A stretch of DNA of 48,971 bases. Source: an uncultured Clostridia bacterium. Its GTDB lineage: Bacteria > Bacillota > Clostridia > CALYAR01. The notes under the pieces are model-generated. The model saw only the letters and a list, made by a program, of their open reading frames with translations. It ran no database searches and had not been told where the DNA came from. Location of the stretch: assembly GCA_944393585.1 (NCBI GenBank), contig CALYAR010000073.1, positions 1-48,971 on the forward strand, in the 5' to 3' direction. Positions 11,283 to 38,772 of this stretch are shown in pieces (the first letter of the stretch is position 1; each line of letters begins with the position of its first letter). The translations under genes were made by a program, and so were the position numbers.

Positions 11283-11320
11283 TAATGAGATTAACAGGAA
11301 TACGAAAGACGGGTGAGAAA

Positions 11321-12352: not shown

Positions 12353-12438
12353 GTTTTTAATTTTATTGTTGTAGAAAACTTTATGCAAATGCAGTTCAGC
12401 TATCCCAGCATTTGCTAAAGAAGAAAAGGAAGTTTGAT

Positions 12439-13269: not shown

Positions 13270-13306
13270 AAAGCAAAAAGGATTTCTATGGAAGGAGATG
13301 TGATAG

Positions 13307-14473: not shown

Positions 14474-14487
14474 AAGGAGCACTCACA

Positions 14488-15171
14488 ATGAAAAAATTAA
14501 CCGCAATATTTTTATCACTTATGATGGTATTCAGCCTTGCCGCATGCACCAGCGAAAGCCCTTCCACTCCATCTGCCACACCGGATTCGTCTCCATCGGA
14601 GAGTCCTCAGGCTTCCGAACCGGCAAGCACTCCGTCTTCCTCTGCCGCAGTGGAAAGCGAGCCGCAGCCGGAAACGGATGCTGAAACGGGAAAAACCCTG
14701 GTAGTCTATTTTTCAGCTACCGGCAATACCGAAGCAGCGGCAAACTATATTGCTGAAATCACCGGCGGTGACCTGTTTGAATTAGAGCCTGCAGACCCAT
14801 ACACCAACGAGGATCTGAATTGGAGAGATGAGGACAGCCGGGTGGTATATGAGCATGATAACCCGGATGCCCGTGATGTAGAATTGGTAGCGGATACGGT
14901 GGAGAATTGGGACGAGTATGATACTGTATTTATCGGATATCCGATTTGGTGGGGAATCGCCGCGTGGCCGGTAGATACCTTTGTAGAGGCCAACGATTTT
15001 ACCGGAAAAACCGTCATTCCTTTCTGCACCTCCTCTTCTTCCGGTTTGGGGGCAAGCGGGCAGCTTCTGGCGGAGCTGGCCGGAACCGGCGACTGGCAGG
15101 AAGGGCATCGTTTCTCATCCAGAGTGAGTGAAGAAGACGTGCGGAGCTGGCTGACTGGACTGGGCCTGTAA
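14488..15171 (+). CDS. Exported lipoprotein with a flavodoxin-fold domain (Flavodoxin_4-like), canonical FMN P-loop
   Basis: MKKLTAIFLSLMMVFSLAAC lipobox, then an S/P/E-rich linker. The flavodoxin domain has an intact phosphate loop VVYFSATGNTE and a GYPIWWG aromatic motif. AAAGGAG RBS before the ATG at 14488. Confidence 0.85.
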   Translation: MKKLTAIFLSLMMVFSLAACTSESPSTPSATPDSSPSESPQASEPASTPSSSAAVESEPQPETDAETGKTLVVYFSATGNTEAAANYIAEITGGDLFELEPADPYTNEDLNWRDEDSRVVYEHDNPDARDVELVADTVENWDEYDTVFIGYPIWWGIAAWPVDTFVEANDFTGKTVIPFCTSSSSGLGASGQLLAELAGTGDWQEGHRFSSRVSEEDVRSWLTGLGL

Positions 15172-15198
15172 GAAAATGACGGAAAGGAGACATACCCG

Positions 15199-16572: not shown

Positions 16573-16574
16573 AA

Positions 16575-17108: not shown

Positions 17109-17187
17109 AAAACGAGATCCATGATCCGGGCGGTCAGCCGGAAGGGGTCTGTTTTCCGTCGATTTACTCGTTTAGAAAGAAGGCAAT

Positions 17188-18555: not shown

Positions 18556-18639
18556 CCTTTGGGTTTTAACTGCAAAACAAATGGAGACTTCTGTTTAAAG
18601 CGCAAGGAATTATAATAAAGACATAAGGAGATGAAAACG

Positions 18640-19626: not shown

Positions 19627-19675
19627 CCCCAGTGACCAGTGAGAATACAATTAGTTATAAATGGAGGAATGTACA

Positions 19676-20521: not shown

Positions 20522-20539
20522 GGAAAGGAGCAAACACTT

Positions 20540-21097
20540 ATGCGTAAAAATTTTGGAACAAAATCCTGGTTCTATCCGCTGCCGGTGCTGATCATCGGCA
20601 CCTACAGCGAGGACGGAACGGCCGATGCCATGAATGCCGCCTGGGGAGGTCTGTACGACGCGGATAAGGTAGTGCTTTGTTTGAGTGCCGGTCACAGAAC
20701 CACTGCAAACATCAAGGCGAGAGGGGCTTTTACTGTGAGCTTTGCGGATGCGGCCCATGTCGTGGCTTCTGATTATGTGGGAATGGTTTCTGCCAACAGT
20801 GAGCCGCAGAAGATGGAAAAGTCCGGATTCCATTTGACGAAGAGTGAGTTTGTGGATGCGCCCCTCATAGATGAACTGCCGGTGGCGCTGGAATGCAAAT
20901 TGATAAAGGTCAATGAGGACGGCAACATCATTGGCCAGATCGTCAATGTCAGCGTTGACGAAAGCGTTTTGGGAGAAGATGGAAGCATCGATTTTGCCAA
21001 ATTCCGTCCTATTTCCTTTGAGCCTGCGCACAATGCCTACCATGTACTGGGTGAGAAGGCAGGAAACGCTTTCCAGGACGGCAGAAAATTGAAATAA
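20540..21097 (+). CDS. Flavin reductase family protein (FMN-binding split barrel)
   Basis: PLPVLIIGTYSEDGTADAMNAAWGG is typical of the Flavin_Reduct family. AAAGGAG RBS. Confidence 0.88.
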   Translation: MRKNFGTKSWFYPLPVLIIGTYSEDGTADAMNAAWGGLYDADKVVLCLSAGHRTTANIKARGAFTVSFADAAHVVASDYVGMVSANSEPQKMEKSGFHLTKSEFVDAPLIDELPVALECKLIKVNEDGNIIGQIVNVSVDESVLGEDGSIDFAKFRPISFEPAHNAYHVLGEKAGNAFQDGRKLK

Positions 21098-21270
21098 AAA
21101 GCCACCCAAATATTTTGCAAAGCGGAAAAAGCAGATAGGGCGGTTTTCCGGAAGATTTGGGAGGAAAACTTTCCGTCGTTGCAGGCGGCGGTATGTTTTA
21201 ATCAAAATGAGAGAGTACCTGCATTGATATAGAAAGGAAGCGCGCAGCAGCGCTGATTGGGTAACCTGTT

Positions 21271-21978
21271 ATGTTTGTAGTTTGTCACATGTTCACTTCT
21301 TTAGACGGAAAGATCGACGGCGCTTTTTTCTCTGCACCGGAAACAGCACCGGCACTGAAAGCGTATCAAGATCTGCGAGGGTTTTATCACTGCCAGGCCG
21401 CCTTATACGGCACTACAACGATGCTCGGCGGTTACGCCGACGGTCTGGTTCCAGCACTGGAAGAAGATAGGGAAGCATACTCCGAAAAGGATTTTATTAA
21501 TCCGGTGGGGAAAACAATGGGCAACTTCATTGTCTCTGTTGACCCCAAAGGCATGCTGGGATTTTCTTCGCATATCCTGGAGAAAAAAGGGCGGCCGGCG
21601 GCCCATGTGGTTGAGGCGCTGACAGAGCAGGCCTCTCCGGCTTATCTTTCCTATCTGCGCAAGCTGGGGATCTCATATCTGTTTGCCGGCCGGGAACAGC
21701 TGGATTGTGCCCTTCTTCTGGAAAAATTGGCGCATCGGTTTGAGATTCAGAGATTGATGATTGCAGGAGGCGGCACGGTGAACTGGTCATTTGTGCAGGA
21801 GGGCCTGATTGACGAGCTTAGCCTGGTAATTGCTCCGGTGGCGGACGGCAGCACTACTGCTGTGTCGATCTTTGAGAGGGCAGAGTTTCTGCCGCCTCAT
21901 GAACCGACCGCTTTTGTGCTGAAAGAGGCAAAACCTCTTGAGGGAAGCGGGCTTTGGCTTCGGTATGCACGGCAGTGA
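21271..21978 (+). CDS. RibD C-terminal domain / dihydrofolate reductase-like family protein
   Basis: HMFTSLDGKIDG at the N-terminus and IAGGGTVNWSF...DELSLVIAP near the C-terminus are typical of RibD_C. The RBS is weak, so the start is uncertain (21271 or 21289). Confidence 0.8.
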   Translation: MFVVCHMFTSLDGKIDGAFFSAPETAPALKAYQDLRGFYHCQAALYGTTTMLGGYADGLVPALEEDREAYSEKDFINPVGKTMGNFIVSVDPKGMLGFSSHILEKKGRPAAHVVEALTEQASPAYLSYLRKLGISYLFAGREQLDCALLLEKLAHRFEIQRLMIAGGGTVNWSFVQEGLIDELSLVIAPVADGSTTAVSIFERAEFLPPHEPTAFVLKEAKPLEGSGLWLRYARQ

Positions 21979-22026
21979 AAGTCCGGCCGGGGAACAAGAC
22001 AGGAGAACAAGAGGTGAAAAAGGAAG

Positions 22027-22920
22027 ATGAAAAAAAGAAAGCTGCTGCTTTTCCCATTCACTGCCGTTTTGGTTTTGGGCCTTACTGCGTGCGAACATTC
22101 TAATACAGAAGCTTCTCCCACGCAAACAGTGCCGGCAGCGGAGGAGGTTTCCTCTCCGAAGCCGGAAAATGAGGAAAGTATAGAATTGGAAGCTTTGGTG
22201 ACGGAGGGAACGGAAACGTATCGGGATTTTCTTCTGGACAATGTGCTGCATACCGAAGAGCAGGGAGATATTCATTTCAATCTCTATATTCCGGAAGATT
22301 ATGACGGAAGCTCGCCATATGCGCTATTTGTCACTCTCCCCGGTTATGAAGGGCTTTATTTTCAGGGAGTAGGCGCTAATCTCCGATCAGAAGAATACGG
22401 CTTTGAAGCGCAGAAGTACAACGAGAAAATGATCATCGCCGCCCCGCAGCTTGGTGACTGGGGCGAAACGTCGGCGAACCAGGCCATCGCACTGACGGAA
22501 TACCTCCTCGGCCATTACAACATTGATCCGGAAAAAGTATACCTGCACGGACTGTCCGGAGGCGGGGAGACAGGCTCTCTGGTGATGGGAAAACGGCCGG
22601 AACTGTACACGGCTTATCTTGCCACCAGCACCCAATGGGACGGCGATTTGGAGCAGTTGGCTGAAGCGGAAACACCGGTCTATCTGGCAGTGGGTGAGGA
22701 TGACAGCTATTACGGTTCTGAGCCGCTCAAGCAGGCTTATGCAGAACTGAAAGCTCTTTATGAGGAAAAGGGATTGTCTGAGGAAGAGATTAACGAGCTT
22801 TTAGTTCTTGACGTGAAAGATCAGGATTATTTTTCTCAGCGCGGTTATTCCGACCAGCACGCCGGAGGCCTGGCCTTCGCCTTTGATGAAACGATCATGG
22901 GCTGGCTGTTTGGCAAATAA
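22027..22920 (+). CDS. Exported lipoprotein, alpha/beta hydrolase (esterase)
   Basis: MKKRKLLLFPFTAVLVLGLTAC lipobox. Nucleophile elbow LHGLSGGG. The fold pattern is esterase/PHB-depolymerase-like. Confidence 0.8.
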   Translation: MKKRKLLLFPFTAVLVLGLTACEHSNTEASPTQTVPAAEEVSSPKPENEESIELEALVTEGTETYRDFLLDNVLHTEEQGDIHFNLYIPEDYDGSSPYALFVTLPGYEGLYFQGVGANLRSEEYGFEAQKYNEKMIIAAPQLGDWGETSANQAIALTEYLLGHYNIDPEKVYLHGLSGGGETGSLVMGKRPELYTAYLATSTQWDGDLEQLAEAETPVYLAVGEDDSYYGSEPLKQAYAELKALYEEKGLSEEEINELLVLDVKDQDYFSQRGYSDQHAGGLAFAFDETIMGWLFGK

Positions 22921-23361
22921 AGACGCGGAAAGACAGGAAGCAAATGACGGAGCGAACTGCGTTCCACCTCCTTTTGCTGCCGGCAGGCCGCCAATGCAGG
23001 GGAAAGAGATATAAGCGCGCTCTTAGCTGTTCCAATGCTGCAAATCAAATTACAAGCGGAACGATGACGAATATCGGACGGATACAATAATGCTGCCAAA
23101 CAACCTTCCCAGGCAGGAATTCTGGGATGAATCTGTCCGACGTTTGATTCCGGCAATGGTAAGAGATGGAGCAATTTCCAGTTGCTATGGCCATGGGATG
23201 TGCTTTTTGATCAGGAAAAGGGCTGATACTGTCTTGGATATCCAAATAGATCGGCGGTTATAAAAGGATATCCTTTGAAGAAAATCAGCGGCAGTATGGC
23301 CAATATGGAAGATGATAGAATTGAAAATAACGTGAGTCGAAAGAGATTGTATTTTGCGTTT

Positions 23362-23397
23362 AGAAAGAACGGCCATTGGAAAGCGGCCGTTCTTTCT
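23362..23397 (+). terminator. 13-bp perfect hairpin in a decayed intergenic region (weak terminator candidate)
   Basis: AGAAAGAACGGCC/GGCCGTTCTTTCT with a 10-nt loop. There is no clean T-run after it. Confidence 0.3.
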
Positions 23398-23746
23398 ATG
23401 TATAACAGATGCTTCCGCAATTTAAAGCCGCCCCAGATAGATCAAAAACAGATAAGACGATACGGTCTGGATTGATTTACAATCACCAAATTCCAGAGCA
23501 TATATGATATTTGCTCCTTGCCTTAGCAGACAAACTGCTCTGGGCCTTCTGCTTACCAATAAATCTCGAATTTGTTTTCCGTTTTAGCAGGGAACGTTTG
23601 ATGCAAATATGCCGATTGCGGCACAGCGATGAGGCTCTTATCCATTGATTCCATGCTTATCTGCGAATATATATTCTTTTTGTTGCTTTTCAGGCATGAG
23701 ATTATTATAATAAGAATGGAATTTGCCTACAATGGGAGGGATGTAT

Positions 23747-24646
23747 ATGGAAATCCGAGTCCTGCGCTATTTTTTGACTGTGGTACGGGAAGAAAGCATC
23801 ACACGGGCAGCAGACGTACTGCACATTACACAGCCTACTCTGAGCCGACAGCTGGCACAAATGGAAGATGAGATGGGGGTCAAACTGTTTGACCGTGGAA
23901 CAAGAAAGATTGTTCTTACGAACGAAGGACTTTTGCTGCGCCGCCGGGCAGAAGAAATTTTAGAACTGGTGGATAAAACGGAAAAAGAACTGACAGAGCA
24001 GGATGAAATGGTCGAAGGAACCGTATCGATCGGATGCGGTGACCTGGCGGCAGTGCAGATGCTGCCGGAGCTGTTTCGCTCCTTTCACGAACGGTATCCG
24101 TCTGTTTCATTTGATCTATATACTGCCACTGCCGACCATGTAAAAGATCGAATGGATCGGGGGCTGACGGATATGGGGCTGTTATTGGAACCGGTCAATA
24201 TCGAAAAGTACGACTTTATCCGCATGGACCAGCGGGAGCAGTGGGTAGCTGTCATGCATCCGGATTCTCCCTTGGCTAAGCTCGATCGTATTACCCCTCA
24301 AGATTTAAAAGATCTTCCTTTGATTCTGCCAAAGCGGATCAATGTTCAGAGCGAAGTAGCGAACTGGTTTGGAGCTGATTTGAGCCAGCTGAATATTCTA
24401 TTTACTTCGAATCTTCCATCCAATAGCTCCATCATGGTGTATAATAAATTGGCATACTCGATTATTATCAAGGGCTCGATCTCCTTCTGGGACAGTCAGA
24501 AGATTACCTACCGGCCGTTGTACCCGGAACTTACCGCAACCAGCGTTTTAGCATGGAAACGAAAGCAGCCCTTTGGTTTGGCGGCCGCAAAATTCATCCA
24601 GTATGCAAAAGACTGCCTGCTTGCAGAGCATGAGAATACAGATTGA
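23747..24646 (+). CDS. LysR family transcriptional regulator
   Basis: MEIRVLRYFLTVVREESITRAADVLHITQPTLSRQLAQME HTH. The GGGAGGG RBS lies 6 nt before the ATG at 23747. Confidence 0.9.
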   Translation: MEIRVLRYFLTVVREESITRAADVLHITQPTLSRQLAQMEDEMGVKLFDRGTRKIVLTNEGLLLRRRAEEILELVDKTEKELTEQDEMVEGTVSIGCGDLAAVQMLPELFRSFHERYPSVSFDLYTATADHVKDRMDRGLTDMGLLLEPVNIEKYDFIRMDQREQWVAVMHPDSPLAKLDRITPQDLKDLPLILPKRINVQSEVANWFGADLSQLNILFTSNLPSNSSIMVYNKLAYSIIIKGSISFWDSQKITYRPLYPELTATSVLAWKRKQPFGLAAAKFIQYAKDCLLAEHENTD

Positions 24647-24706: not shown

Positions 24707-24736
24707 TTAGACATGGAAAATTTTCCGATTTATAAT
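24707..24736 (+). promoter_or_regulatory. MerR-type promoter candidate with a dyad operator in an over-long spacer
   Basis: -35 TTAGAC (24707-12), an 18-nt spacer and -10 TATAAT (24731-36). The spacer contains the perfect 12-bp palindrome GGAAAATTTTCC (24715-26). The site lies about 65 nt upstream of the MerR start. Confidence 0.45.
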
Positions 24737-24800: not shown

Positions 24801-25172
24801 ATGGTGATGACCTTACAGGAGGCAAGCAGACGGTTTCATTTGAAATTGGATATGCTCCAGCTGTATGAAGAAAACGGTCTGTTAAAGAGAATGAAAACAA
24901 AAGATGGAACTGTCGATTATCCGGAGTCGGAACTGCATCGTGCCTCCCACTTGTATTTTCTGGAGAAAGCTGGAATGGATTTGGATACACTGAAGCGATT
25001 TGTAAAACTTTCGGAAAAAGGAAGCAGTACAGAACAAATCCAGCTTTTACGCAAATGCAGGCATCAACTTCTGGAGGAAATCCATCGAAAACAGCAGTCG
25101 CTTGATCAATTAGATTATCTCATCTATGAGATAAAAAATCCAAAGAGTCAAAAGGAGGATCGACTTCTATGA
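24801..25172 (+). CDS. MerR family transcriptional regulator
   Basis: MerR HTH pattern (TLQEASRRFHLKLDMLQLYEENGLL) plus a C-terminal coiled-coil. GGAGGA RBS; the start is ATG 24801 or 24807. Its stop overlaps the next gene's start (ATGA). Confidence 0.8.
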   Translation: MVMTLQEASRRFHLKLDMLQLYEENGLLKRMKTKDGTVDYPESELHRASHLYFLEKAGMDLDTLKRFVKLSEKGSSTEQIQLLRKCRHQLLEEIHRKQQSLDQLDYLIYEIKNPKSQKEDRLL

Positions 25173-26299
25173 AACGATTTACCGCAGTTATACTGGCTGT
25201 GGGGCTGATTTTTTCTCTGGCGGCCTGCCAAAATCAAGATGATGAACCGCCGTCCGTCAGTACCCCGTCGGCAGAGAACCAGGAACCTGCTGCGTCTGCT
25301 GAACCTGCAGAGCAGGACCTCACGCAATCAGAAATACCGGAGACTAAGAGTATATTAATCGCTTACTTTTCCCTGGGCCGTAATGCCGATTCCCCCAAAG
25401 ACATTGATGCCAGTACATCGGCAAGCCTTGTGATGGATGGAGAAGAACAAATGGGAACCACGGAATATGTAGCACATTTGATTCAGGACAATGTGGGCGG
25501 GGATCTCCATTCCATTCAAACTTTAGACCCCTATTCTTCGGATTTTGATACCGTGGTGGATCAAAACCACGAAGAACAGGATGCCGGTACCCTGCCTGTG
25601 CTGATGACCAGCGATTTGGATGTTTCCCAATACGATATTGTGTTTATTGGATATCCTATTTGGGCTACCAGTGCTCCGCAGGCCGTCTTTTCCTTCCTCT
25701 CTCAATATGATCTGTTCGGAAAAACATTGATTCCCTTCTGTACTCATGATGGGTACGGTGCAGGCAGCAGCTATAAGGACATTGCAGACGCTGTCAGCGG
25801 AGCAAGGGAGGTCTTAGACGGATTGGCTGTTGAGGCGTCGGACGTGCCCGATTCTGAAGAAACCGTTGCCGAGTGGCTGCGGAGTATTGATATAGAGCAG
25901 CAGTCTGAGACTGCCAATCAGTCTGGGGAAACGGCAATTACCATTTCGATCGGCGATACTGTGCTGGACGGCGTATTATATAACACGGCTCTGGCAAACG
26001 AAATTCAGCAGTATTTTCCGCTGACGATTTCTATGACGGGCTTTGGCGGAAGAGAATATTATGGAGGTGTAGATTTCTATCTGGAGAATGCAGAAGGCGG
26101 GCAAAAAAATTTTGAAAACGGTGATATCACATATTGCCAAGCTCATCACAACATGGCGATATTTTACGCACAGACCGATGATCCTGATCTTTCCGTAGAG
26201 GTAATTCCCATAGGGAAAGTGACATCTGATCTTGGCATATTCCATGAACTTCCGGGCAGTGTGGAAATCACATTCGCTCTGGCGGATTCGTTAATTTGA
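25169..26299 (+). CDS. Exported lipoprotein: flavodoxin-fold domain fused to a cyclophilin-like domain
   Basis: Lipobox FSLAAC, then an acidic P/E/S linker. The flavodoxin-fold domain has a split P-loop (AYFS...DIDASTSAS...GTTE) and GYPIWA. The C-terminal about 120 aa (ITISIGDTVLDGVLYNTALANEI...GDITYCQAHHNMAIFY...IPIGKV) matches the cyclophilin-like family pattern. Confidence 0.8.
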   Translation: MKRFTAVILAVGLIFSLAACQNQDDEPPSVSTPSAENQEPAASAEPAEQDLTQSEIPETKSILIAYFSLGRNADSPKDIDASTSASLVMDGEEQMGTTEYVAHLIQDNVGGDLHSIQTLDPYSSDFDTVVDQNHEEQDAGTLPVLMTSDLDVSQYDIVFIGYPIWATSAPQAVFSFLSQYDLFGKTLIPFCTHDGYGAGSSYKDIADAVSGAREVLDGLAVEASDVPDSEETVAEWLRSIDIEQQSETANQSGETAITISIGDTVLDGVLYNTALANEIQQYFPLTISMTGFGGREYYGGVDFYLENAEGGQKNFENGDITYCQAHHNMAIFYAQTDDPDLSVEVIPIGKVTSDLGIFHELPGSVEITFALADSLI

Positions 26300-26322
26300 T
26301 TTAAGACAGGAGGAAATCCATC

Positions 26323-27108
26323 ATGAAAAAATTTTTGATTATCTTTACGGCGTGTATCTTGACTTTAATTTTGGCGGCCTGCAGTGAAAATAGTACGTCC
26401 GGCGATTCACAGCCCGAACCGACTCCAAGCAGTTCTCAGATAAGCGTGCCGCAAACGCCTTCTTCTGAGCCGGAAGATCCTGAACCGTTGCCTGCGGAGC
26501 CTTCCTCCGCATTGTCTGATGAGGAGCAGCCAGCGGAAGAAGAGGAAACGGAAACAAATATGCTGGTTGCTTATTTCAGCTATGCCGAGAATGCAGATTT
26601 GCCGGATGATGTAGATGCGTCCGCCTCGGCAAGCATTCAGGCCTGGAACGGCGAGATCACAGGCAACACCGGTGTAGTGGCCGCCATGATTGCCGAAGCA
26701 ACCGGTGCGGACCTGTTCTCCATTCAAACGGTAGAAAAATACCCTGATACCTATGATGCAACCATTAACCAGGGACAGGAAGAACGCAATCAAGACGCCC
26801 GACCAGAGCTTGCTTCTCATCTGGAAAATACAGAAAGCTATGATGTCATTTTCCTGGGCTTTCCCAATTGGTGGGGAGACATGCCAATGGCGGTATACAG
26901 TTTTTTGGATGAAGTGGATCTTTCGGGTAAGACCATTGTGCCATTTGTCACTTCCGGCGGCAGCGGATTCTCCAATACCATTCGTACGATTGAAAGCCTG
27001 GAATCCGGCGCAGCCGTCCAGCAGGGACTATCCGTCAGCGCCTCCAGTGCCGCAGGTGCACAGGATCAGGTCAATGAATGGCTCAGCGGACTGGGATATG
27101 CAGGGTAA
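26323..27108 (+). CDS. Exported lipoprotein with a flavodoxin-fold domain (long P-loop insert)
   Basis: Lipobox LILAAC, an acidic linker, AYFSYAENADLPDDVDASASASIQAWNGEITGNTG, then GFPNWWG and VPFVTSGGSG. Confidence 0.85.
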   Translation: MKKFLIIFTACILTLILAACSENSTSGDSQPEPTPSSSQISVPQTPSSEPEDPEPLPAEPSSALSDEEQPAEEEETETNMLVAYFSYAENADLPDDVDASASASIQAWNGEITGNTGVVAAMIAEATGADLFSIQTVEKYPDTYDATINQGQEERNQDARPELASHLENTESYDVIFLGFPNWWGDMPMAVYSFLDEVDLSGKTIVPFVTSGGSGFSNTIRTIESLESGAAVQQGLSVSASSAAGAQDQVNEWLSGLGYAG

Positions 27109-27122
27109 AAGGAGCGGTTATT

Positions 27123-28094
27123 TTGAAAAAACGTATTCTTGGAAAACAAAATTCATTGACAGTTTCTGAAATCGGCATGGGCTGCATGGGATTCAGCCAT
27201 GGCTATGGCCCAGGACCAGGGCGGAATGAGTCTATCCAGCTGATCCGGACTGCCTACGATTTGGGCTGTACTTTCTTTGACACGGCAGAAGGGTATGCAG
27301 CCGGCGAAAACGAAAGGCTGGTCGGCGAGGCAATCAAACCATTCCGGCACGAGGTGATCCTCGCCACAAAGCTGCATATTCCAGAGGAGGGAGACTTGGA
27401 AACCGCCATTCGAAAACATCTGGACGACTCTCTCTTCCGGCTGGGATGCGACTATGTGGATCTGTATTACCAGCACCGGGTCAATAAGAATATTCCAGTT
27501 GAAGAAGTGGCCGGCGTCATGGGCAAGCTCATTGACGAAGGCAAGATTCGCGGCTGGGGGCAGTCTCAGGCTTCAAACAGTGAGATCCGCCGGGCACATG
27601 CTGTTACTCCGATCACGGCGATTCAAAGCGAGTATTCCTTGATGGAGCGGATGTTTGAAAAGGATGTGCTTCCTGCATGCAGGGAGCTTGGCATTGGCTT
27701 TGTCCCCTTCTCTCCGCTGGGAGCAGGTTTCCTGAGCGGCAGATATACCAGCAAAGACATCTATACCGGTGACGATGTTCGCCGCGTCATTACCCGCTTT
27801 TCCAAAGACAATATGGATGCCAATCAGCCGCTGCTGGATTTGCTCCATCGGTTTGCACATGAAAAAGGCGCAACTCCAGCGCAGATTTCACTGGCCTGGA
27901 TGCTGCACAAATGGGATTTTTTAGTACCCATTCCCGGTATGCGGAAGGCGGAGCGAATCAGGGAGAATTTTGGCTCTGCGGATGTGGTGCTCACCCATGA
28001 GGAATTTGGGCGGCTGGAAGCAGAACTTGCCCGAATGAATATCTACGGAAACCGAACCGATGAGGATATTGCCAAGCTGCGGGATATGATTTGA
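27123..28094 (+). CDS. Aldo/keto reductase
   Basis: The TTG at 27123 lies 8 nt after the AAAGGAG RBS (27108-14). The ORF-track start at 27078 would overlap the upstream gene. Motifs GMGCMGFS, DTAEGY and HRVN are present. There is no signal peptide. Confidence 0.9.
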   Translation: MKKRILGKQNSLTVSEIGMGCMGFSHGYGPGPGRNESIQLIRTAYDLGCTFFDTAEGYAAGENERLVGEAIKPFRHEVILATKLHIPEEGDLETAIRKHLDDSLFRLGCDYVDLYYQHRVNKNIPVEEVAGVMGKLIDEGKIRGWGQSQASNSEIRRAHAVTPITAIQSEYSLMERMFEKDVLPACRELGIGFVPFSPLGAGFLSGRYTSKDIYTGDDVRRVITRFSKDNMDANQPLLDLLHRFAHEKGATPAQISLAWMLHKWDFLVPIPGMRKAERIRENFGSADVVLTHEEFGRLEAELARMNIYGNRTDEDIAKLRDMI

Positions 28095-28152
28095 ATGAAG
28101 ATCGGGAGCGAGCATTTGAATCAAAAATTTTATGGGAAAGAAGGAATATTTT

Positions 28153-28890
28153 ATGAGAAAAATTACGGCACTGCTTATAGCATTTGTTTTGACTTTTTCT
28201 TTTGCTGGATGCAGTTCCAATCAAGAGGAGCAGAAACCGGCTGAAAGTCCATCCAACCGCGCAGAGCCTGCTCCCTCAGAATCGCCGTCTGGTTCTGAAA
28301 CTTCTGCGCCGGCGGATGACTCCTCACAGGGACAGTCTGCCGGCGATGAAAGCAATATACTGGTGGCATATTTTTCCTGGGCTGACAATGCTGTGATCGA
28401 GGGAGATGTGGACGCTGTGACTTCTCCCAGCGTTACTGCTCCCGGCAATGTACAGCAGCTTGCCGGATGGGTGCAGGAAAAAACAGGCGGCGATTTGTTC
28501 TCAATTCAGGTGACAGAACCGTATCCCAGCGGTTGGGATGAATGCCTGGAACGAGCCAATCAGGAGCGGGCAGAAGATGCCCGGCCGGAGCTTACGGCCG
28601 CTGTAGAAAATATGAACGACTACGATACGGTCTTTCTGGGTTACCCCAACTGGTGGTATGGGGCACCGATGGCACTTTTGTCTTTTCTGGAAGAAAACGA
28701 CCTGTCGAATAAGCAGATCTATCTGTTTTGTTCTCATGGCACAGGGGGTCTTGCAGGAAGTGTAGAGGATATTCAAGCGGTACTGCCGGACAGCGCCGTG
28801 CTCTCTGACAATGTCTTTGACGTGTACGAAGAAGAGGCAGCATCTTCACAGAATGCTATTTTGGATTGGCTGGCAGAACTGGGATATTGA
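28153..28890 (+). CDS. Exported lipoprotein with a flavodoxin-fold domain (long P-loop insert)
   Basis: MRKITALLIAFVLTFSFAGC lipobox, an S/P/E linker, AYFSWADNAVIEGDVDAVTSPSVTAPGNV, then GYPNWWYG and LFCSHGTGG. Confidence 0.85.
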   Translation: MRKITALLIAFVLTFSFAGCSSNQEEQKPAESPSNRAEPAPSESPSGSETSAPADDSSQGQSAGDESNILVAYFSWADNAVIEGDVDAVTSPSVTAPGNVQQLAGWVQEKTGGDLFSIQVTEPYPSGWDECLERANQERAEDARPELTAAVENMNDYDTVFLGYPNWWYGAPMALLSFLEENDLSNKQIYLFCSHGTGGLAGSVEDIQAVLPDSAVLSDNVFDVYEEEAASSQNAILDWLAELGY

Positions 28891-28958
28891 TGGAAGCTGC
28901 TGTATCCAATCGTTTTATTTTAGCTGGGTTTTCTGCCTATGTGAGAGGATGATATAAT

Positions 28959-29654
28959 TTGAAACCGAAAATGATGTTAAAAATGTCCATAGATTTTGTC
29001 ATGACAGTTCTGCTTCTCTGCCAGATGGCTTATATGCTCATTGGAGAGACAGCGCATGAATGGATGGGAACGGCTTTGTTTCTGCTGTTTATCCTGCACC
29101 ATATTCTCAACTGGAGATGGTATAAAAATTTATCCGCAGGAAAGTACAGTGCTGTTCGGATTTTGCAGACTATAGTTGATTTTTTGGTACTCTTCTCCAT
29201 GATTGGCCTGATGATCAGCGGCATTATGATGTCCAGGGAGGTGTTTGCTTTCCTGCCGATCGGCGGAGGAATGGGATTTGCCCGAATTCTGCACATGCTG
29301 ACCGCCTATTGGGGATTCATTTTTATGAGTATCCATCTCGGACTGCACTGGGGGATGATTATGAGCATGATACGGAAGCTGAGCGGTACATCTAAGATAG
29401 TCCCTGTCCGAACCTGGATATTACGGGTGCTGGCAGTCATAATCTGCTGCTTTGGTATATATTCCTTTTTCAGACACAACATTGCCGACTATCTGTTTGT
29501 ACGCAGTCAGTTCGTATTTTTTGATTTGGAACAGCCGCTTATACTGTTTTTTGGAGAATACCTGGCCATGATGGGCCTGTGGGTCTGTATCGCATACTAT
29601 GCAGTCCGGTTGATATCAAAATGCACAGGAAAAAAGCCAATTAAAAAAGGCTAA
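28959..29654 (+). CDS. DUF4405-like polytopic membrane protein with conserved intramembrane histidines (possible b-type cytochrome)
   Basis: About 6 TM segments. His residues sit in or near TM helices (ETAHEW, FILHHILNW, RILHML, SIHLGLHW), matching the DUF4405 N-terminal pattern. The start is uncertain (TTG 28959 or the ATGs at 28971, 28974 or 28983). Confidence 0.7.
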   Translation: MKPKMMLKMSIDFVMTVLLLCQMAYMLIGETAHEWMGTALFLLFILHHILNWRWYKNLSAGKYSAVRILQTIVDFLVLFSMIGLMISGIMMSREVFAFLPIGGGMGFARILHMLTAYWGFIFMSIHLGLHWGMIMSMIRKLSGTSKIVPVRTWILRVLAVIICCFGIYSFFRHNIADYLFVRSQFVFFDLEQPLILFFGEYLAMMGLWVCIAYYAVRLISKCTGKKPIKKG

Positions 29655-29926
29655 TGTGGTGAAGCATTGAGAATGAAAATTCAAAATACACATGCCTGTA
29701 TGCCCGGTCAAAGAAGTGCATCCCCAGGCGATAAATGAGGCAGAAGGTAATATTCTTTTGTGCCGAGGCATTTGTATATTTGCAAAAAGGACACCGTATT
29801 TTTCGGATTTGGTGAAAGCGAATCCTTTTAAAGATTTGTATTTTCCAGATCCGAAGAGCGGAAAAAGGCCTACCGCGGCCTGCAAAATATTTAATACGAT
29901 TGATTTCATGTTAGGAGGTTTTATTT

Positions 29927-31099
29927 ATGAATTTTCAGATGTATATGCCAACTAGGATTTTATTTGGCGCAGGGCAGCTTTCGAATCTGCACGCACAGGC
30001 ACTGCCCGGCAAAAAGGCTATGATTGTTATTTCCAACGGCAAGTCAACCCGGGCAAACGGTTCTCTTGCCAAAACAGAACAGCAGTTAAAGCAGGCCGGA
30101 GTAGAGACCGTTCTGTTTGACAAGATCATGGCAAATCCATTGAAGTCCACCGTGATGGAGGGCGCTGCCTATGCGAGAAAAAACGGCTGTGATTTTCTAG
30201 TGGCTTTGGGCGGGGGCAGCGTCATGGACGCTTCCAAAGCGATTGCGGCGATGGCGGTCAATGACGGCGATTTGTGGGACTATGTGTCCGGCGGCACCGG
30301 AAAAGGCAAAGCTCTGGTCAGCGAGCCGCTTCCCATTGTGGCCATTACGACAACAGCGGGAACCGGCAGTGAAGTAGATCAGTATGGCGTTATTTCCAAT
30401 GAGGAAACCAACGAAAAAATCGGGTTTGGCGGTTCGGATTCCTTGTTTCCCCGGCTTGCTGTCGTCGATCCGGAGCTCATGAGCACAGTTCCTCCCCGGT
30501 TCACTGCCTATCAGGGATTTGACGCTCTGTTTCACAGCGTTGAGTGCTATATTGCGGCACCGGCCAATCTGATGAGCGACATGTACGCCTTAACTGCCAT
30601 GGAAAACATCGGAACCTATCTTGGACGAGCAGTGAAGAATGGGGCAGATTTGGAGGCCCGGGAGCATGTAGCCTTTGCAAATACCCTTTCCGGTGTGGTC
30701 ATGACACTGAGCGGCTGTACCAGTGAGCATTCCATTGAGCACGCAATGAGTGCATACCATCATGACCTTCCTCACGGAGCAGGGCTAATTATGATTTCCA
30801 AGGCATATTTTACTCACTTCATTAATAGGCACGCCTGTGATGAGCGGTTTATTTGTATGGCACGCGCCTTGGGAAAACAGAATGCAAAAGAACCAATGGA
30901 TTTCATTGCAGCACTGACAGAGCTGCAGGAAGAATGCGGTGTGGCAGATTTAAAAATGTCGGATTATGGCATAGAGCCCGAGGAGTTTATGACCCTTGCC
31001 CGGAATGCCCGCGCCACTATGGGAGGTCTGTTCGCCTGCGACCGGGTACCGCTTTCTGATGAGGATTGTGCCGCTATCCTTGAAAAATCTTACCGCTAG
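29927..31099 (+). CDS. Iron-containing alcohol dehydrogenase
   Basis: ALGGGSVMDASKAIA and TTTAGTGSE motifs, plus His-rich metal ligands (HSIEHAMSAYHHDLPHGAG). GGAGG RBS. Confidence 0.92.
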   Translation: MNFQMYMPTRILFGAGQLSNLHAQALPGKKAMIVISNGKSTRANGSLAKTEQQLKQAGVETVLFDKIMANPLKSTVMEGAAYARKNGCDFLVALGGGSVMDASKAIAAMAVNDGDLWDYVSGGTGKGKALVSEPLPIVAITTTAGTGSEVDQYGVISNEETNEKIGFGGSDSLFPRLAVVDPELMSTVPPRFTAYQGFDALFHSVECYIAAPANLMSDMYALTAMENIGTYLGRAVKNGADLEAREHVAFANTLSGVVMTLSGCTSEHSIEHAMSAYHHDLPHGAGLIMISKAYFTHFINRHACDERFICMARALGKQNAKEPMDFIAALTELQEECGVADLKMSDYGIEPEEFMTLARNARATMGGLFACDRVPLSDEDCAAILEKSYR

Positions 31100-32349: not shown

Positions 32350-32458
32350 GCAAATTTTTCGGAGAAACGGGCAAGCGGCATAGACAATTCATTTGTTATA
32401 CTCAAAATACAAAAGAGGTTTTTCCTCGCATCAATCTAGGAATATGGAGGTTTTTGTA

Positions 32459-32869
32459 ATGGTTTTAACAGATGAACTGTGTGATAAGCTTTGCACTGCC
32501 GCACGAGAAAAGAGCAGGGAAATGGGAATTGATATCAGCTTTGCGGTCAGCGACGAGAATGGTCTGCCCAGAGTTTACCGCAGATATGGGGAAGCGTTGG
32601 TGCTGAGTATTACCCTCGTACCCGGAAAAGCCTATACGGCTGCCGTTACACAATGTAAAACAAAAGATGTAGCTGCTGCTGCCGCAGAAGGTGCTCCCCT
32701 AATGGCGATTCGGACAAATGACCCCCGGATTACGCTTGTGGCCGGAGGATATCCGTTGTTTGTAAATGGGAAGATTGCCGGCGGCATTGGAGTAGGAGGC
32801 GGAACAGAGGAGCAAGACTGCGAAATTGCGGAGTATGTAGTTTCCGTGTTTGAGAGATTAAGCTTATAA
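32459..32869 (+). CDS. GlcG/HbpS-like (DUF336) heme-binding family protein
   Basis: The pattern FAVSDENG...AGGYPLF.NGKIAGGIGVGGGTEEQDCEIA is typical of DUF336. The GGAGG RBS lies 8 nt before the ATG at 32459. Confidence 0.85.
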   Translation: MVLTDELCDKLCTAAREKSREMGIDISFAVSDENGLPRVYRRYGEALVLSITLVPGKAYTAAVTQCKTKDVAAAAAEGAPLMAIRTNDPRITLVAGGYPLFVNGKIAGGIGVGGGTEEQDCEIAEYVVSVFERLSL

Positions 32870-35992: not shown

Positions 35993-37024
35993 ATGAGGAC
36001 GTTAAAACATATATTGGCTGTAATTTTACTCACAGTAACTATGGCGGGATGCAGCACACAAACAGCGGAGGAGGCGCAAAGGGCAGAAAGAAGCTTTTTT
36101 GCGATGAATACTTATATGACTTTCACTGCCTATGGAGAAAACGCTCAGACGGCTTTGCAGAAATCAGAGGAACTGATTTCTGATGCGGAGTCCCTTTGGT
36201 CCGTTACCAATGGGGATAGCGAGATTTACCGGGCAAATCACAGCGGCGGGCAGACAATTACAGTCAGCAGCGAGACGGCAGATCTGATTTCCTTTGCTTT
36301 AGATATGGCACAGAAAACGGACGGCGCGCTGGATCCCACCATTTATCCTGTGCTGACCGCCTGGGGCTTTACTACCGACAGCAAACAGGTTCCATCTCCA
36401 AAGCAGATTGAAAGCCTGCTTTCAAAAGTAGGCTATGACCGTATCCGGCTGGAAGGCGCGGCTTTGACCGTCCCGGATGGAATGGAGCTGGACCTGGGCG
36501 CAGTAGCAAAAGGCTACGCTGCTGATCTGGTCACGGACGTATTGAAAGAACATGGTATTGAGTCCGCACTCATCAGCCTTGGAGGAAACATTCAAGCCAT
36601 TGGTTCCCGGCCCGACGACAGTGACTGGCGGATCGGGATCCGCGCTCCGTGGGAGGATGGAAACCTGGGTGTGCTGGAGATCAGCGACTCGGCAGTAGTG
36701 ACCTCCGGTGGGTATGAAAAATACTTTGAAGATGAAAATGGAAATATCCATTGGCATATTCTCGACCCGTCTACTGGTTATCCGGCGGACAGTGGACTGC
36801 AGTCTGTTACTGTTATTGGCAAAGAGGGCAAGCTGTGTGATGCACTTTCCACAGCTTTATTTGTAATGGGAGCGGAAAATGCGGAAGCATACTGGCGGGA
36901 GACAGGCGGATTTGACATGCTGCTGGTCACCGATGAAAATGAGATTATTCTGACAGAAGGGATCGCCGGCCGATTTTCTCTGGGCGATGAACGAACTGAG
37001 ACAGTTCGGGTGCTGGAATCATGA
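35993..37024 (+). CDS. apbE: FAD:protein FMN transferase (ApbE family), lipoprotein
   Basis: Lipobox VTMAGC. ApbE signatures are present: GALDPTIYPVLTAWGF, LDLGAVAKGYAAD, VVTSGGYEKYF, HILDPSTGYP and CDALSTALFVMG. Confidence 0.92.
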   Translation: MRTLKHILAVILLTVTMAGCSTQTAEEAQRAERSFFAMNTYMTFTAYGENAQTALQKSEELISDAESLWSVTNGDSEIYRANHSGGQTITVSSETADLISFALDMAQKTDGALDPTIYPVLTAWGFTTDSKQVPSPKQIESLLSKVGYDRIRLEGAALTVPDGMELDLGAVAKGYAADLVTDVLKEHGIESALISLGGNIQAIGSRPDDSDWRIGIRAPWEDGNLGVLEISDSAVVTSGGYEKYFEDENGNIHWHILDPSTGYPADSGLQSVTVIGKEGKLCDALSTALFVMGAENAEAYWRETGGFDMLLVTDENEIILTEGIAGRFSLGDERTETVRVLES

Positions 37025-37386
37025 AGTGGAAAAAATGGCCTTTCGTCCTGGTGGGAATCATTTTGTTAATTGGGATTGCAGGAAGCGTGCTGGTACTGCA
37101 AAGGCCCGGTACCAATTTGGTGGAAATTGTTCAAGATGGCGAAGTGCTGTATCAGTTTGACCTGCTGCAGGCAGAGGACCAAATTATCAAAGTGGAGTAC
37201 AGCGGCAGAGTTAACACGATAGAAATCAAAGACCATCAAATTCATATGCTGGAGGCAGAGTGCCCGGACAAAACCTGCGTGAACGCAGGCTGGCTGAACT
37301 CAGCAGCGCCGATTGTCTGCCTGCCAAATCATCTGGTGATCCGGTTTACAAACAACAGCAATATTGTGGATGGAGTTGTCGGCTAA
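37021..37386 (+). CDS. NusG domain II-containing protein (membrane-anchored)
   Basis: Its start overlaps the ApbE stop (ATGA). It has an N-terminal TM anchor and the CPDKTCVNAGWL...IVCLPNHLVI motif typical of the NusG_II family. Confidence 0.85.
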   Translation: MKWKKWPFVLVGIILLIGIAGSVLVLQRPGTNLVEIVQDGEVLYQFDLLQAEDQIIKVEYSGRVNTIEIKDHQIHMLEAECPDKTCVNAGWLNSAAPIVCLPNHLVIRFTNNSNIVDGVVG

Positions 37387-37400
37387 GGAGAGTGATAGGT

Positions 37401-37898
37401 TTGAAAGCCAGAAGATTAACGGAATTAGCATTACTCACTGCGGTAGCCCTGATTATCTTTGTAGTGGAATTGCAGATTCCCAACCCTGTTCCCATTGCCG
37501 GAGTGAAGCTGGGGCTGGCAAATATCATTACGGTATATGCCATGTATCATTACCGGGCAAATGAGGTCTTTCTGATTGTCGTTGTCCGAATCCTTCTTGG
37601 CTCATTTTTTTCTGGAAATATAATGACGCTCCTGTACAGCATGGCCGGAGGTTTGCTGTGCCTTGCGGGGATGCTGCTGATGAAACCTTTGCTTCCCGAA
37701 AAGTATATTTGGGTATGCAGTGTGTTGGGTGCAGTGTTGCACAACATCGGACAAACAGCAGTTGCTTGTCTGATTGCTGGATGGGGAATGATCGTTTACC
37801 TCCCGTTTCTGCTGGTATCCGGCTGCATTGCCGGTACATTTACGGGGATCTGTGCGCAGCTGTTGATTTGGCGGCGGATTAAGAAGCCAAATGGCTAG
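37401..37898 (+). CDS. Gx transporter family protein (heptaprenyl diphosphate synthase component I-like membrane protein)
   Basis: The TTG at 37401 follows an AAGGAG RBS (37385-90). The sequence LTELALLTAVALIIFVVELQIPNPVPIAGVKLGLANIITV and 5 TM segments fit the family. The ORF-track start at 37260 lies inside the upstream gene. Confidence 0.8.
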   Translation: MKARRLTELALLTAVALIIFVVELQIPNPVPIAGVKLGLANIITVYAMYHYRANEVFLIVVVRILLGSFFSGNIMTLLYSMAGGLLCLAGMLLMKPLLPEKYIWVCSVLGAVLHNIGQTAVACLIAGWGMIVYLPFLLVSGCIAGTFTGICAQLLIWRRIKKPNG

Positions 37899-38597: not shown

Positions 38598-38772
38598 ACG
38601 GATGGCAGATCATAAATATTAAAAGAAATATTGTCCTGGCATGATCTGTAATCAGAGGAAGGAATCCGTCCGATGTACTCTTTCGCACTGCCCCAATCTT
38701 ATACAATTTCAAATTGCGAATAAATGGGTTACCATTTGTTTGATACACAAATTTATTAAGGAGGATGGGAAA
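38598..38772 (+). promoter_or_regulatory. Conserved 5' leader of the second SLH protein gene (homologous to 1472..1596)
   Basis: It has the same conserved blocks as the first leader. The inverted repeat AAATGG-N4-CCATTT (38722-37) precedes the AAGGAGG RBS. Confidence 0.4.

What the first reader, a model, noticed from the sequence alone, without database searches (positions are those of the whole stretch)
25406..28431. An ApbE-type flavinylation-like motif sits inside the FMN phosphate loop of three exported flavodoxin paralogs
In paralog 14488 the canonical flavodoxin phosphate loop is uninterrupted (YFSATGNT). In the other three paralogs it is split by a 22-27 aa insert containing a related motif:
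- D-A-S-T-S-A-S at 25406-25426
- D-A-S-A-S-A-S at 26614-26634
- D-A-V-T-S-P-S at 28411-28431

The published ApbE target motif is D-[AG]-x-[ST]-[GS]-A-[ST], with FMN phosphoester-linked to the last Ser or Thr. The first paralog matches it at every position, the second at all but one, and the third has Pro instead of Ala.

The motif sits exactly where the FMN phosphate should bind. These proteins are exported and cannot take a pre-bound cofactor through Sec. An extracytoplasmic ApbE lipoprotein is encoded 7 kb downstream with no canonical FMN_bind client next to it.

The hypothesis is that these are a new class of covalently flavinylated, flavodoxin-fold ApbE substrates. The known client classes that I am aware of are FMN_bind, NqrB/RnfD-like, DUF2271 and DUF3570.
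Basis: inference. Interest (0 to 1): 0.75.

Follow-up and report, generated by a model that had tools for sequence, protein, structure and literature searches.

The report
Covalently flavinylated exported flavodoxins, already described
Three membrane-tethered flavodoxin proteins carry a loop that very probably lets the enzyme ApbE bond their flavin cofactor to them permanently, but this exact protein class was published and experimentally confirmed in 2024, so these are ordinary new examples.

Summary
DASTSAS, DASASAS and DAVTSPS lie at the stated coordinates. Each sits in a 20-25 residue insert between strand beta1 (YFS) and the G-N/T-T cap of helix alpha1. All three proteins are Flavodoxin_4 (PF12682) lipoproteins. 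A fourth exported paralog (14488-15171) lacks the insert.

The motif is not chance. The strict pattern occurs once in all six frames of the window. The terminal S-A-S (S-P-S in the third paralog) is kept in about 120 orthologs of each protein.

The interpretation, ApbE flavinylation of a flavodoxin fold, is very probably right. It is not new. Huang et al. 2024 (mSystems, PMC11334425) described flavinylated Flavodoxin_4 proteins with this beta1/alpha1 insert. They confirmed two of them by co-expression with ApbE and Ser-to-Ala mutants. They also linked the class to DUF4405 heme-b cytochromes and a flavin exporter.

The window holds all of these parts:
- DUF4405 directly follows the third paralog.
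- apbE sits next to an EetB-type (PF07456) FAD-export subunit.

Two points remain open: the conserved Ser-Pro-Ser variant in the third paralog, and the unknown electron acceptor.

The parts
25169..26299 (+). Paralog B: a lipoprotein with a Flavodoxin_4 domain carrying the beta1/alpha1 insert, plus a C-terminal cyclophilin-like domain. The predicted FMN acceptor is Ser86.
   Evidence: Pfam PF12682 at E 1.4e-18 and PF18050 at E 8e-18. The lipobox is LAAC. 120 orthologs keep the fusion and an invariant S-A-S.
25406..25426 (+). DASTSAS, a strict match to the ApbE motif D-[AG]-x-[ST]-[GS]-A-[ST].
   Evidence: In orthologs the motif reads DASTSAS in 51, DATTSAS in 35, and variants that all end in SAS in the rest.
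26323..27108 (+). Paralog C: a lipoprotein with a single Flavodoxin_4 domain carrying the insert. The predicted FMN acceptor is Ser104.
   Evidence: PF12682 at E 1.5e-26. NCBIfam PRK06934 scores 171 bits against a cutoff of 172. The AF2 model has pLDDT 88.3. The top structural matches are 4ICI, 4J8P and 3KLB.
26614..26634 (+). DASASAS, the ApbE-like motif with Ala at position 4.
   Evidence: The 120 closest homologs read D-[AVT]-S-x-[TSG]-A-S-I, and positions 4 and 5 vary.
28153..28890 (+). Paralog D: a lipoprotein with a Flavodoxin_4 domain carrying a shorter insert. The candidate acceptor is Ser100 in the numbering of the ORF that starts at 28132.
   Evidence: PF12682 at E 1.2e-20. The lipobox is FAGC. 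The exact protein starting at 28153 is in the public collection as P0277.
28411..28431 (+). DAVTSPS, a motif variant with Pro where the canonical motif has Ala.
   Evidence: Pro is kept in 118 of 120 orthologs at 65-70% identity. More distant subgroup members read DATTSAS.
14488..15171 (+). Paralog A: an exported Flavodoxin_4 lipoprotein with the uninterrupted YFSATGNT loop and no flavinylation motif.
   Evidence: PF12682 at E 2.2e-42.
28959..29654 (+). DUF4405 membrane protein, a presumed di-heme b cytochrome that carries electrons across the membrane to the flavodoxins.
   Evidence: PF14358 at E 1.8e-14. His33, His47, His112 and His126 are invariant or nearly so in 34 homologs. Heme b binding by this family was shown in PMC11334425. 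DUF4405 directly follows a Flavodoxin_4 gene in 26 of 80 loci.
35993..37024 (+). ApbE-family FAD:protein FMN transferase, a lipoprotein.
   Evidence: PF02424 at E 9.3e-88. NCBIfam ApbE at E 1.8e-43, below that model's cutoff. The lipobox is MAGC.
37021..37386 (+). Small membrane-anchored NusG_II-domain protein, in the position that eetA occupies relative to eetB.
   Evidence: PF07009 at E 2.5e-24. The equivalence with EetA is my inference from gene order; I found no paper stating it.
37260..37898 (+). EetB-family (PF07456) membrane protein, the substrate-binding subunit of the ECF-type FAD exporter that supplies ApbE. The true start is probably near 37380.
   Evidence: PF07456 at E 4e-38 over residues 59-201. 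EetB function and its co-localisation with apbE in 2,169 genomes are reported in PMC9973259.
24741..25172 (+). MerR-family regulator whose stop overlaps the start of paralog B. It is probably the first gene of a unit reading merR, fldB, fldC, akr, fldD, DUF4405.
   Evidence: PF13411. A weak NmlR-like match at E 7.6e-11. The best promoter-like site of the region is at 24708-24736, matching 11 of 12 positions. The operon itself is inferred from gene spacing only.

Best explanation
Paralogs B and C, and probably D, belong to the published class of ApbE-flavinylated extracytosolic Flavodoxin_4 proteins.

Proposed mechanism:
1. Each protein is exported unfolded and anchored to the membrane by lipidation, with a Ser/Pro/Glu-rich linker between anchor and domain.
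2. FAD is exported by an ECF-type transporter that uses the EetB-like subunit encoded beside apbE.
3. The ApbE lipoprotein transfers the FMN part of FAD onto the hydroxyl of the last serine of the motif (B Ser86, C Ser104, D Ser100) as a phosphoester.
4. That serine lies in a 20-25 residue loop inserted between strand beta1 and the G-N-T cap of helix alpha1. The tethered FMN can therefore occupy the normal flavodoxin pocket and cannot diffuse away outside the cell.
5. The DUF4405 heme-b cytochrome encoded directly after paralog D passes electrons across the membrane to or from these flavodoxins.
6. The terminal acceptor or donor is unknown.

Shown here: domain identities, the position of the insert, conservation of the motif, export signals and gene neighbourhoods. 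Inferred: flavinylation of these particular proteins (by homology to two tested members), the electron path, and the FAD supply route.
For: - Family and insert. PF12682 hits for all paralogs. The insert lies between beta1 and the G-N-T cap of alpha1 in the alignment. The AF2 model places beta1 at residues 6-10, the motif at 24-30 and alpha1 from residue 41, with pLDDT 88.3.
- Comparison with non-covalent homologs. The sequence and fold relatives 3KLB, 4J8P and 4ICI align only from the G-N-T onward. They lack the insert.
- Motif conservation. The final x-A-S is invariant in about 120 orthologs each of B and C, and S-P-S is kept in 118 of 120 orthologs of D. Among 150 representatives clustered at 50% identity, 100 of about 119 insert-bearing domains carry the motif, and 98-99 of those 100 proteins have a signal peptide or lipobox.
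- Literature. PMC11334425 describes the same insert in Flavodoxin_4 and shows covalent flavin that depends on ApbE and on the Ser/Thr, for A. xylanovorans and D. lacus. It also notes co-occurrence with DUF4405 and the flavin exporter.
- Neighbourhood. DUF4405 follows D in the window and occurs in 41 of 80 related loci. In loci L004, L006 and L017, apbE, the NusG_II gene and the PF07456 gene are contiguous with orthologous flavodoxin genes.
- FAD supply. PF07456 is the family of EetB, the FAD-export subunit.
Against: - No experiment exists on these three proteins.
- I could not retrieve the two validated sequences, so their direct similarity to B, C and D was not measured.
- C has Ala at motif position 4, and its orthologs often have Thr at position 5.
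- D has Pro at the position before the acceptor. Published mutagenesis shows that even Ala-to-Val there halves flavinylation, and Pro has not been tested.
- apbE is 7.1 kb and eight ORFs from D. That is outside the five-gene window used in the 2024 paper.
- The motif loop is the least confident part of the model, with pLDDT about 62. I could not measure the distance from the serine to the FMN phosphate site because coordinates are not returned.
- Exported family members without any motif exist (paralog A and the 'NMT..EE.NS' insert type), so covalent attachment is not obligatory outside the cell. DUF4405 pairs with those types as well.
Confidence: 0.8

Rival explanations
1. Only B and C are flavinylated. 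Paralog D and its Ser-Pro-Ser orthogroup have lost ApbE recognition. They would bind FMN non-covalently, or bind no flavin, and the loop is kept for structural reasons.
For: - Pro replaces the Ala that precedes the acceptor. In the literature Ala-to-Val at that position already lowers flavinylation to about 50%.
- D also has G-N-V instead of G-N-T and a shorter insert.
- Exported family members without a motif exist, so non-covalent exported flavodoxins are viable.
Against: - D-A-V-[AT]-S-P-S-V is under strong conservation: 118 of 120 orthologs at 65-70% identity. That is hard to explain for a dead site.
- The acceptor Ser and the leading Asp are both retained.
- The nearest subgroup has the canonical DATTSAS at the same place.
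- D is the paralog encoded directly beside the DUF4405 cytochrome.
Confidence: 0.4
2. The insert is a lid or docking loop, for example for the DUF4405 cytochrome or for a substrate. Its resemblance to the ApbE motif is incidental, and none of the three proteins is covalently flavinylated.
For: - The motif is short and rich in Ser, Ala and Thr, which are common in these low-complexity lipoproteins.
- Many orthologs deviate from the strict consensus at positions 4 and 5.
- Another insert type of the same length, 'NMT..EE.NS', has no such motif.
Against: - Two family members with the same insert were shown to be flavinylated at the predicted residue.
- The strict motif is otherwise absent from the 49-kb window in all six frames.
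- The invariant positions are exactly the ones that matter for ApbE: the Asp, the Ala and the terminal Ser.
- apbE is contiguous with orthologs in related genomes.
Confidence: 0.1
3. The serine-rich motif is a site for a different modification, such as O-glycosylation or phosphorylation of a surface lipoprotein.
For: Ser/Thr-rich segments of Gram-positive surface proteins can be glycosylated. This rests on general knowledge only; no tool result here supports it.
Against: - The motif is inside the folded flavodoxin domain next to the cofactor site, not in the Ser/Pro linker.
- No glycosyltransferase or kinase gene is nearby.
- The sequence pattern matches ApbE specificity.
Confidence: 0.03

Closest known systems
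ApbE-flavinylated Flavodoxin_4 proteins of Anaerocolumna xylanovorans (SHO45324.1) and Desulfosporosinus lacus (WP_073032509.1), from Huang et al. 2024, mSystems, PMC11334425
   Same: They share the Pfam family (PF12682) and an insertion between beta1 and alpha1 that carries an ApbE-like motif ending in Ser/Thr. They are also extracytosolic, found mainly in Firmicutes, and associated with apbE, DUF4405 and the flavin exporter.
   Different: - The window proteins are untested.
- apbE is not within five genes of them.
- D carries a Ser-Pro-Ser variant.
- B is fused to a cyclophilin-like domain.
- Sequence identity to the validated proteins was not measured, because their sequences could not be fetched.
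Non-covalent Flavodoxin_4 structures 3KLB (B. fragilis, with FMN), 4J8P and 4ICI
   Same: They have the same fold (Foldseek probability 1.00; TM-score normalised to the target 0.80-0.85). Sequence identity is 25-29% in those structural alignments, and the sequence matches run from the G-N-T loop onward.
   Different: They lack the 20-25 residue insert and the motif, and FMN is held non-covalently.
FMN_bind-domain ApbE clients (NqrC, RnfG, PplA)
   Same: They use the same modifying enzyme and the same short motif D-x-x-[ST]-G-A-[ST], with FMN phosphoester-linked to the last residue. They have the same extracytosolic electron-transfer role.
   Different: The fold is unrelated. In those proteins the motif is part of the native domain, not an insert into a pre-existing non-covalent FMN site.
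Engineered 'flavin-fixing' of non-covalent flavoproteins with ApbE (Tong et al. 2023, PMC10722498; review PMC12052999)
   Same: The principle is the same: an ApbE motif is placed so that its acceptor residue sits near the phosphate of the bound FMN.
   Different: Those proteins were designed in the laboratory by point mutations. Here the site is a natural loop insertion.
Listeria monocytogenes FmnB/EetB flavin export and flavinylation module (PMC9973259)
   Same: An apbE-family gene sits next to a PF07456 (EetB) gene with a small membrane-protein gene in between.
   Different: The window holds no PplA, Ndh2 or DMK genes and no FmnA-type ECF-T gene. The clients here are flavodoxins rather than FMN_bind proteins.

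Membership tests
ApbE-flavinylated Flavodoxin_4 (Huang et al. 2024) | Flavodoxin_4 (PF12682) domain | tested here: met
   B scores E 1.4e-18, C E 1.5e-26 and D E 1.2e-20.
ApbE-flavinylated Flavodoxin_4 (Huang et al. 2024) | Insertion between strand beta1 and helix alpha1 that is absent from 3KLB | tested here: met
   The insert is 20-25 extra residues relative to paralog A. PDB homologs align only from the G-N-T onward. The model places beta1 at 6-10 and alpha1 at 41-53.
ApbE-flavinylated Flavodoxin_4 (Huang et al. 2024) | ApbE-like motif ending in Ser/Thr inside the insertion (paralogs B and C) | tested here: met
   B has DASTSAS, a strict match. C has DASASAS, with one deviation at a position that also varies in orthologs. 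The terminal S-A-S is invariant in orthologs.
ApbE-flavinylated Flavodoxin_4 (Huang et al. 2024) | ApbE-like motif ending in Ser/Thr inside the insertion (paralog D) | tested here: inconclusive
   D has DAVTSPS. The Asp and the terminal Ser are present, but Pro replaces the conserved Ala. Pro is kept in 118 of 120 orthologs, and no mutagenesis data exist for Pro.
ApbE-flavinylated Flavodoxin_4 (Huang et al. 2024) | Extracytosolic location | tested here: met
   Each protein has an N-terminal hydrophobic segment plus a lipobox Cys. This is a sequence heuristic, not a dedicated predictor. 117 of 120 D orthologs and 105 of 121 B orthologs have a lipobox.
ApbE-flavinylated Flavodoxin_4 (Huang et al. 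2024) | apbE co-localised (within five genes in the paper's screen) | tested here: not met
   apbE is on the same contig but 7.1 kb and eight ORFs from D. In related genomes L004, L006 and L017 it is contiguous with orthologs. This was the paper's screening rule, not a biochemical requirement.
ApbE-flavinylated Flavodoxin_4 (Huang et al. 2024) | Covalent FMN that depends on ApbE and on the motif Ser | not testable with these tools
   This needs co-expression, UV SDS-PAGE or mass spectrometry, and Ser-to-Ala mutants.
ApbE-flavinylated Flavodoxin_4 (Huang et al. 2024) | Motif Ser placed next to the FMN phosphate site in a structure | not testable with these tools
   Model coordinates are not returned. 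Only the position in the sequence (the beta1/alpha1 loop) and the confidence of that loop (about 62) are known.
DUF4405 flavinylation-associated cytochrome b | PF14358 domain with four conserved membrane-embedded histidines | tested here: met
   PF14358 at E 1.8e-14. His33, His47 and His126 are 100% conserved and His112 97% conserved in 34 homologs. Heme binding itself was not tested.
EetB-type FAD export subunit | PF07456 membrane protein encoded beside apbE | tested here: met
   PF07456 at E 4e-38, two genes after apbE. The family's function is from PMC9973259. Its ECF-T and ECF-A partners are not in the window.

The most novel reading that the evidence does not exclude
Two less ordinary readings remain open.

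1. The Ser-Pro-Ser form of the site in paralog D, conserved in more than 100 orthologs, may be a functional variant of the ApbE recognition motif. That would widen the known specificity of ApbE. Alternatively, it may mark a sub-lineage that switched back to non-covalent flavin while keeping the loop.

2. The recurring island may be one system whose physiological acceptor is still unknown, for example reductive handling of quinones or carbonyl compounds at the cell surface. The island combines several exported flavodoxin paralogs and DUF4405 with cytosolic aldo/keto reductases, Fe-alcohol dehydrogenases, FMN reductases and esterase lipoproteins, under LysR/MerR regulators.
Probability: 0.25. 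Interest if true: 0.5.

Novelty: already known. Interest (0 to 1): 0.22.

Why it matters
That idea was published in 2024 with biochemical proof, so the window adds examples rather than a concept.

This locus is still useful as a compact test set. It holds one motif-less and three motif-bearing exported paralogs, one of them with an untested Pro variant. It also holds the cognate ApbE, an EetB-type exporter subunit and a DUF4405 cytochrome, all on one contig.

The physiological role of the flavodoxin/DUF4405 pathway in gut Clostridia remains unknown.

Tried and rejected
- I tried to obtain the two experimentally validated sequences (SHO45324.1 and WP_073032509.1) for a direct alignment. Table S1 of the paper lists accessions only.
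- I looked for a published link between EetA and the NusG_II domain (PF07009) and found none. That equivalence stays an inference from gene order.
- My first regular-expression classifications of loop types were wrong for the 'YFSRVGNT...DAVSSAS' subtype, which has a G-N-T-like string directly after YFS. I replaced them with alignment-based extraction and a corrected classifier.
- I considered that the motif might be a chance feature of the Ser/Ala-rich lipoprotein linkers. I rejected this because it lies inside the folded domain at the homologous position in all three paralogs and is conserved in orthologs.
- The terminator scan gave fewer hits than shuffled sequence (13 against 15.0, sd 4.7), so it says nothing about operon ends.
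- I checked whether ApbE has another client nearby. No FMN_bind domain or motif-bearing ORF is present in the window.

Full report
**Observation**

The three stated intervals translate to DASTSAS, DASASAS and DAVTSPS. They lie in ORFs 25169-26299 (B), 26323-27108 (C) and 28132/28153-28890 (D).

These three ORFs, and the ORF at 14488-15171 (A), all match Pfam Flavodoxin_4, PF12682. A alignment of the four with 120 homologs gives this picture:

| Paralog | Sequence from YFS to the loop cap | Residues between YFS and G |
|---|---|---|
| A | YFS-AT-GNT | 2 |
| B | YFS ... G-T-T | 27 |
| C | YFS ... G-N-T | 27 |
| D | YFS ... G-N-V | 22 |

The strict ApbE pattern occurs once in all six reading frames of the 48,971-base window, in B. 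A relaxed pattern finds only B, C, D and one unrelated site in a cytosolic short-chain dehydrogenase.

All four paralogs and the ApbE at 35993-37024 (PF02424, E 9e-88) begin with a hydrophobic segment and a lipobox cysteine.

**What the insert is**

PDB relatives found by sequence (4J8P, 3KLB, 4ICI; E about 1e-20) align to C only from its T-G-N-T onward. They lack the insert.

An AlphaFold2 model of the C domain has mean pLDDT 88.3 and pTM 0.87. It shows:
- beta1 at residues 6-10;
- the motif at residues 24-30, in a lower-confidence loop (about 62);
- a small hairpin;
- helix alpha1 starting at the Asn of G-N-T.

Foldseek returns 4ICI, 4J8P and 3KLB as the best matches (probability 1.00; TM-score normalised to the target 0.80-0.85). 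3KLB is a non-covalent FMN complex. The insert therefore sits between beta1 and alpha1, at the loop that binds the FMN phosphate in flavodoxins.

**Conservation**

- The 120 closest homologs of C read D-[AVT]-S-x-[TSG]-A-S-I.
- The 120 homologs of B all end in S-A-S. DASTSAS occurs 51 times and DATTSAS 35 times. All keep the C-terminal cyclophilin-like domain.
- The 120 homologs of D (65-70% identity) read D-A-V-[AT]-S-P-S-V, with Pro kept in 118.

I also searched 1.84 billion representative proteins, which gave 7,881 hits at E up to 0.001, and analysed the best 150:
- About 119 domains carry an insert. 100 of these carry the Asp...Ala/Pro-Ser/Thr motif, 49 of them strictly canonical.
- 98-99 of those 100 proteins have a signal peptide or lipobox. 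One apparent exception, P0136, has no signal.
- About 16 domains carry a different insert of similar length, 'NMT..EE.NS[TV]VVIDGEVLGNT', without the motif.
- A few carry the 13-residue 'GENYxVG' loop.
- Short-loop domains also occur in exported proteins, often in the same polypeptide.

The motif therefore tracks export. Export does not require the motif.

**Literature**

Huang et al. 2024 (mSystems, PMC11334425) already describe this class. Their findings:
- Flavodoxin_4 proteins that co-localise with apbE have an insertion between beta1 and alpha1 containing the predicted flavinylated serine.
- AlphaFold models compared with 3KLB place that residue at the flavin site.
- Co-expressing the A. 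xylanovorans and D. lacus proteins with their cognate ApbE gave UV-fluorescent bands that needed the Ser/Thr.
- DUF4405 proteins bind heme b.
- Clusters with apbE and DUF4405 often also encode a flavinylated Flavodoxin_4 and the flavin exporter.

Rivera-Lugo et al. 2023 (PMC9973259) showed that EetB (Pfam PF07456) is the FAD-binding ECF-S subunit that exports FAD for ApbE. They found it co-localised with apbE in 2,169 genomes and with eetA in 3,328.

The ApbE review PMC12052999 gives the motif as D-x-x-[S/T]-G-A-[S/T] and summarises mutagenesis:

| Change | Effect on flavinylation |
|---|---|
| Acceptor Thr to Ala | abolished |
| Asp to Ala | minor effect |
| Gly to Ala | about 50% |
| Ala to Val | about 50% |
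| Acceptor Thr to Ser | reduced by 10-55% |

Pro at the position before the acceptor has not been tested.

**The window contains the whole published set of parts**

- A DUF4405 gene (28959-29654, PF14358) starts 68 bases after D. Its His33, His47, His112 and His126 are conserved in 34 homologs.
- apbE (35993-37024) is followed by a NusG_II gene (37021-37386) and a PF07456 gene (to 37898).
- ApbE is therefore not an orphan enzyme. It sits with its flavin supply.

A scan of GTDB species genomes returned 80 loci. Most are from Clostridia. Others come from Bacteroidota, Spirochaetes, Desulfovibrio and, for short or 13-residue loop types, Methanosarcina. The best match was Candidatus Gallacutalibacter pullistercoris at 69% identity.

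In those 80 loci:
- DUF4405 is present in 41.
- DUF4405 lies directly downstream of a Flavodoxin_4 gene in 26 and is fused to one in 2.
- ApbE is present in 11.
- In L004, L006 and L017, apbE, the NusG_II gene and the PF07456 gene are contiguous with orthologs of B, C or D.

**Mechanism**

The most likely sequence of events, with confidence about 0.8 for B and C:
1. Sec export and lipidation.
2. FAD export through an EetB-type ECF transporter.
3. ApbE transfers FMN onto B Ser86 and C Ser104, and possibly D Ser100.
4. The tethered FMN docks in the ordinary flavodoxin pocket.
5. DUF4405 carries electrons across the membrane.

The partner acceptor is unknown. Only the sequence-level facts are shown here. 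The covalent bond and the electron path are inferred.

**What is left that is not in the paper**

- D's conserved Ser-Pro-Ser variant. I put the chance that it is not flavinylated at about 0.4.
- The cyclophilin-like fusion in B.
- The coexistence of one motif-less and three motif-bearing exported paralogs.
- A recurrent neighbourhood of aldo/keto reductases (38 of 80 loci), Fe-alcohol dehydrogenases (about 35), FMN reductases (31), LysR regulators and esterase lipoproteins. This count has no background control.

**Verdict**

The mechanism is very probably right. The claim of novelty is wrong, because the class is already known. Interest is low to modest.

Noticed in passing
window 15199-16572 (+): A lipoprotein whose N-terminal domain is a degenerate Flavodoxin_4-like fold. 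It has no S/T-x-x-G-N-T loop and no P-x-W-W, and only the C-terminal half matches Pfam, at E 7e-5. It is fused to an Abhydrolase_3/BD-FAE esterase domain. Similar flavodoxin-esterase fusions of 500-760 aa occur in related loci.
   Followed up: partly
L042 4869-7158 and L046 16263-18417: DUF4405 is fused in one polypeptide (763 and 718 aa) to a short-loop 'WGGNT' Flavodoxin_4 domain. DUF4405 also lies directly downstream of short-loop and 'NMT'-type flavodoxin genes, so the cytochrome partnership is not restricted to motif-bearing flavodoxins.
   Followed up: partly
Family-wide; e.g. L022 9766-10549, L066 9784-10543, and P0124, P0144, P0178: A third insert type of the same length, 'MPETTxPxNMTxEExNS[TV]VVIDGEVLGNT', replaces the ApbE-like motif in many exported Flavodoxin_4 proteins. 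How these proteins hold their flavin is unknown.
   Followed up: no
window 10313-24646 and 27078-31099; 80 GTDB loci: The flavodoxin genes sit in an island with three aldo/keto reductases, two Fe-alcohol dehydrogenases, an SDR, an FMN reductase, a flavin reductase, a RibD_C protein, a MATE pump, three esterase-type lipoproteins and LysR, MerR and AraC regulators. The same families recur around Flavodoxin_4 genes in other genomes: AKR in 38 of 80 loci, Fe-ADH in about 35, FMN_red in 31. No background control was run.
   Followed up: partly
window 26578-26592 (C residues 86-90, YAENA) and the equivalent positions in B and D: The five residues directly after YFS keep a nearly invariant Asn-Ala/Thr (N16 and A17 in alignment A1). 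In many relatives they read R-V-G-N-T, a second phosphate-loop-like string. This hints that the insert may have arisen by partial duplication of the loop. The model gives this segment a short helix.
   Followed up: no
window 1546-9921 (+) and 38641-43503 (+): Two very large proteins (2,791 and 1,620 aa) carry three C-terminal SLH domains, a heparinase II/III-like domain and, in the first, right-handed beta-helix and Ig-like domains. They are probably cell-wall-anchored polysaccharide-degrading enzymes.
   Followed up: no
P0136 (351 aa, from the representative search): A two-domain Flavodoxin_4 protein with a DAVSSAS motif in its second domain has no recognisable signal peptide: the sequence starts MEQHSSDSHILVAYFSCSGNT. 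It is either a mis-called start or a rare cytoplasmic motif-bearing member.
   Followed up: no
window 32393-32869 (+): An HbpS-like/GlcG 'haem-degrading' family protein (PF03928, E 1.5e-27) is encoded between the DUF4405 cytochrome and apbE. Its relevance to heme handling was not examined.
   Followed up: no
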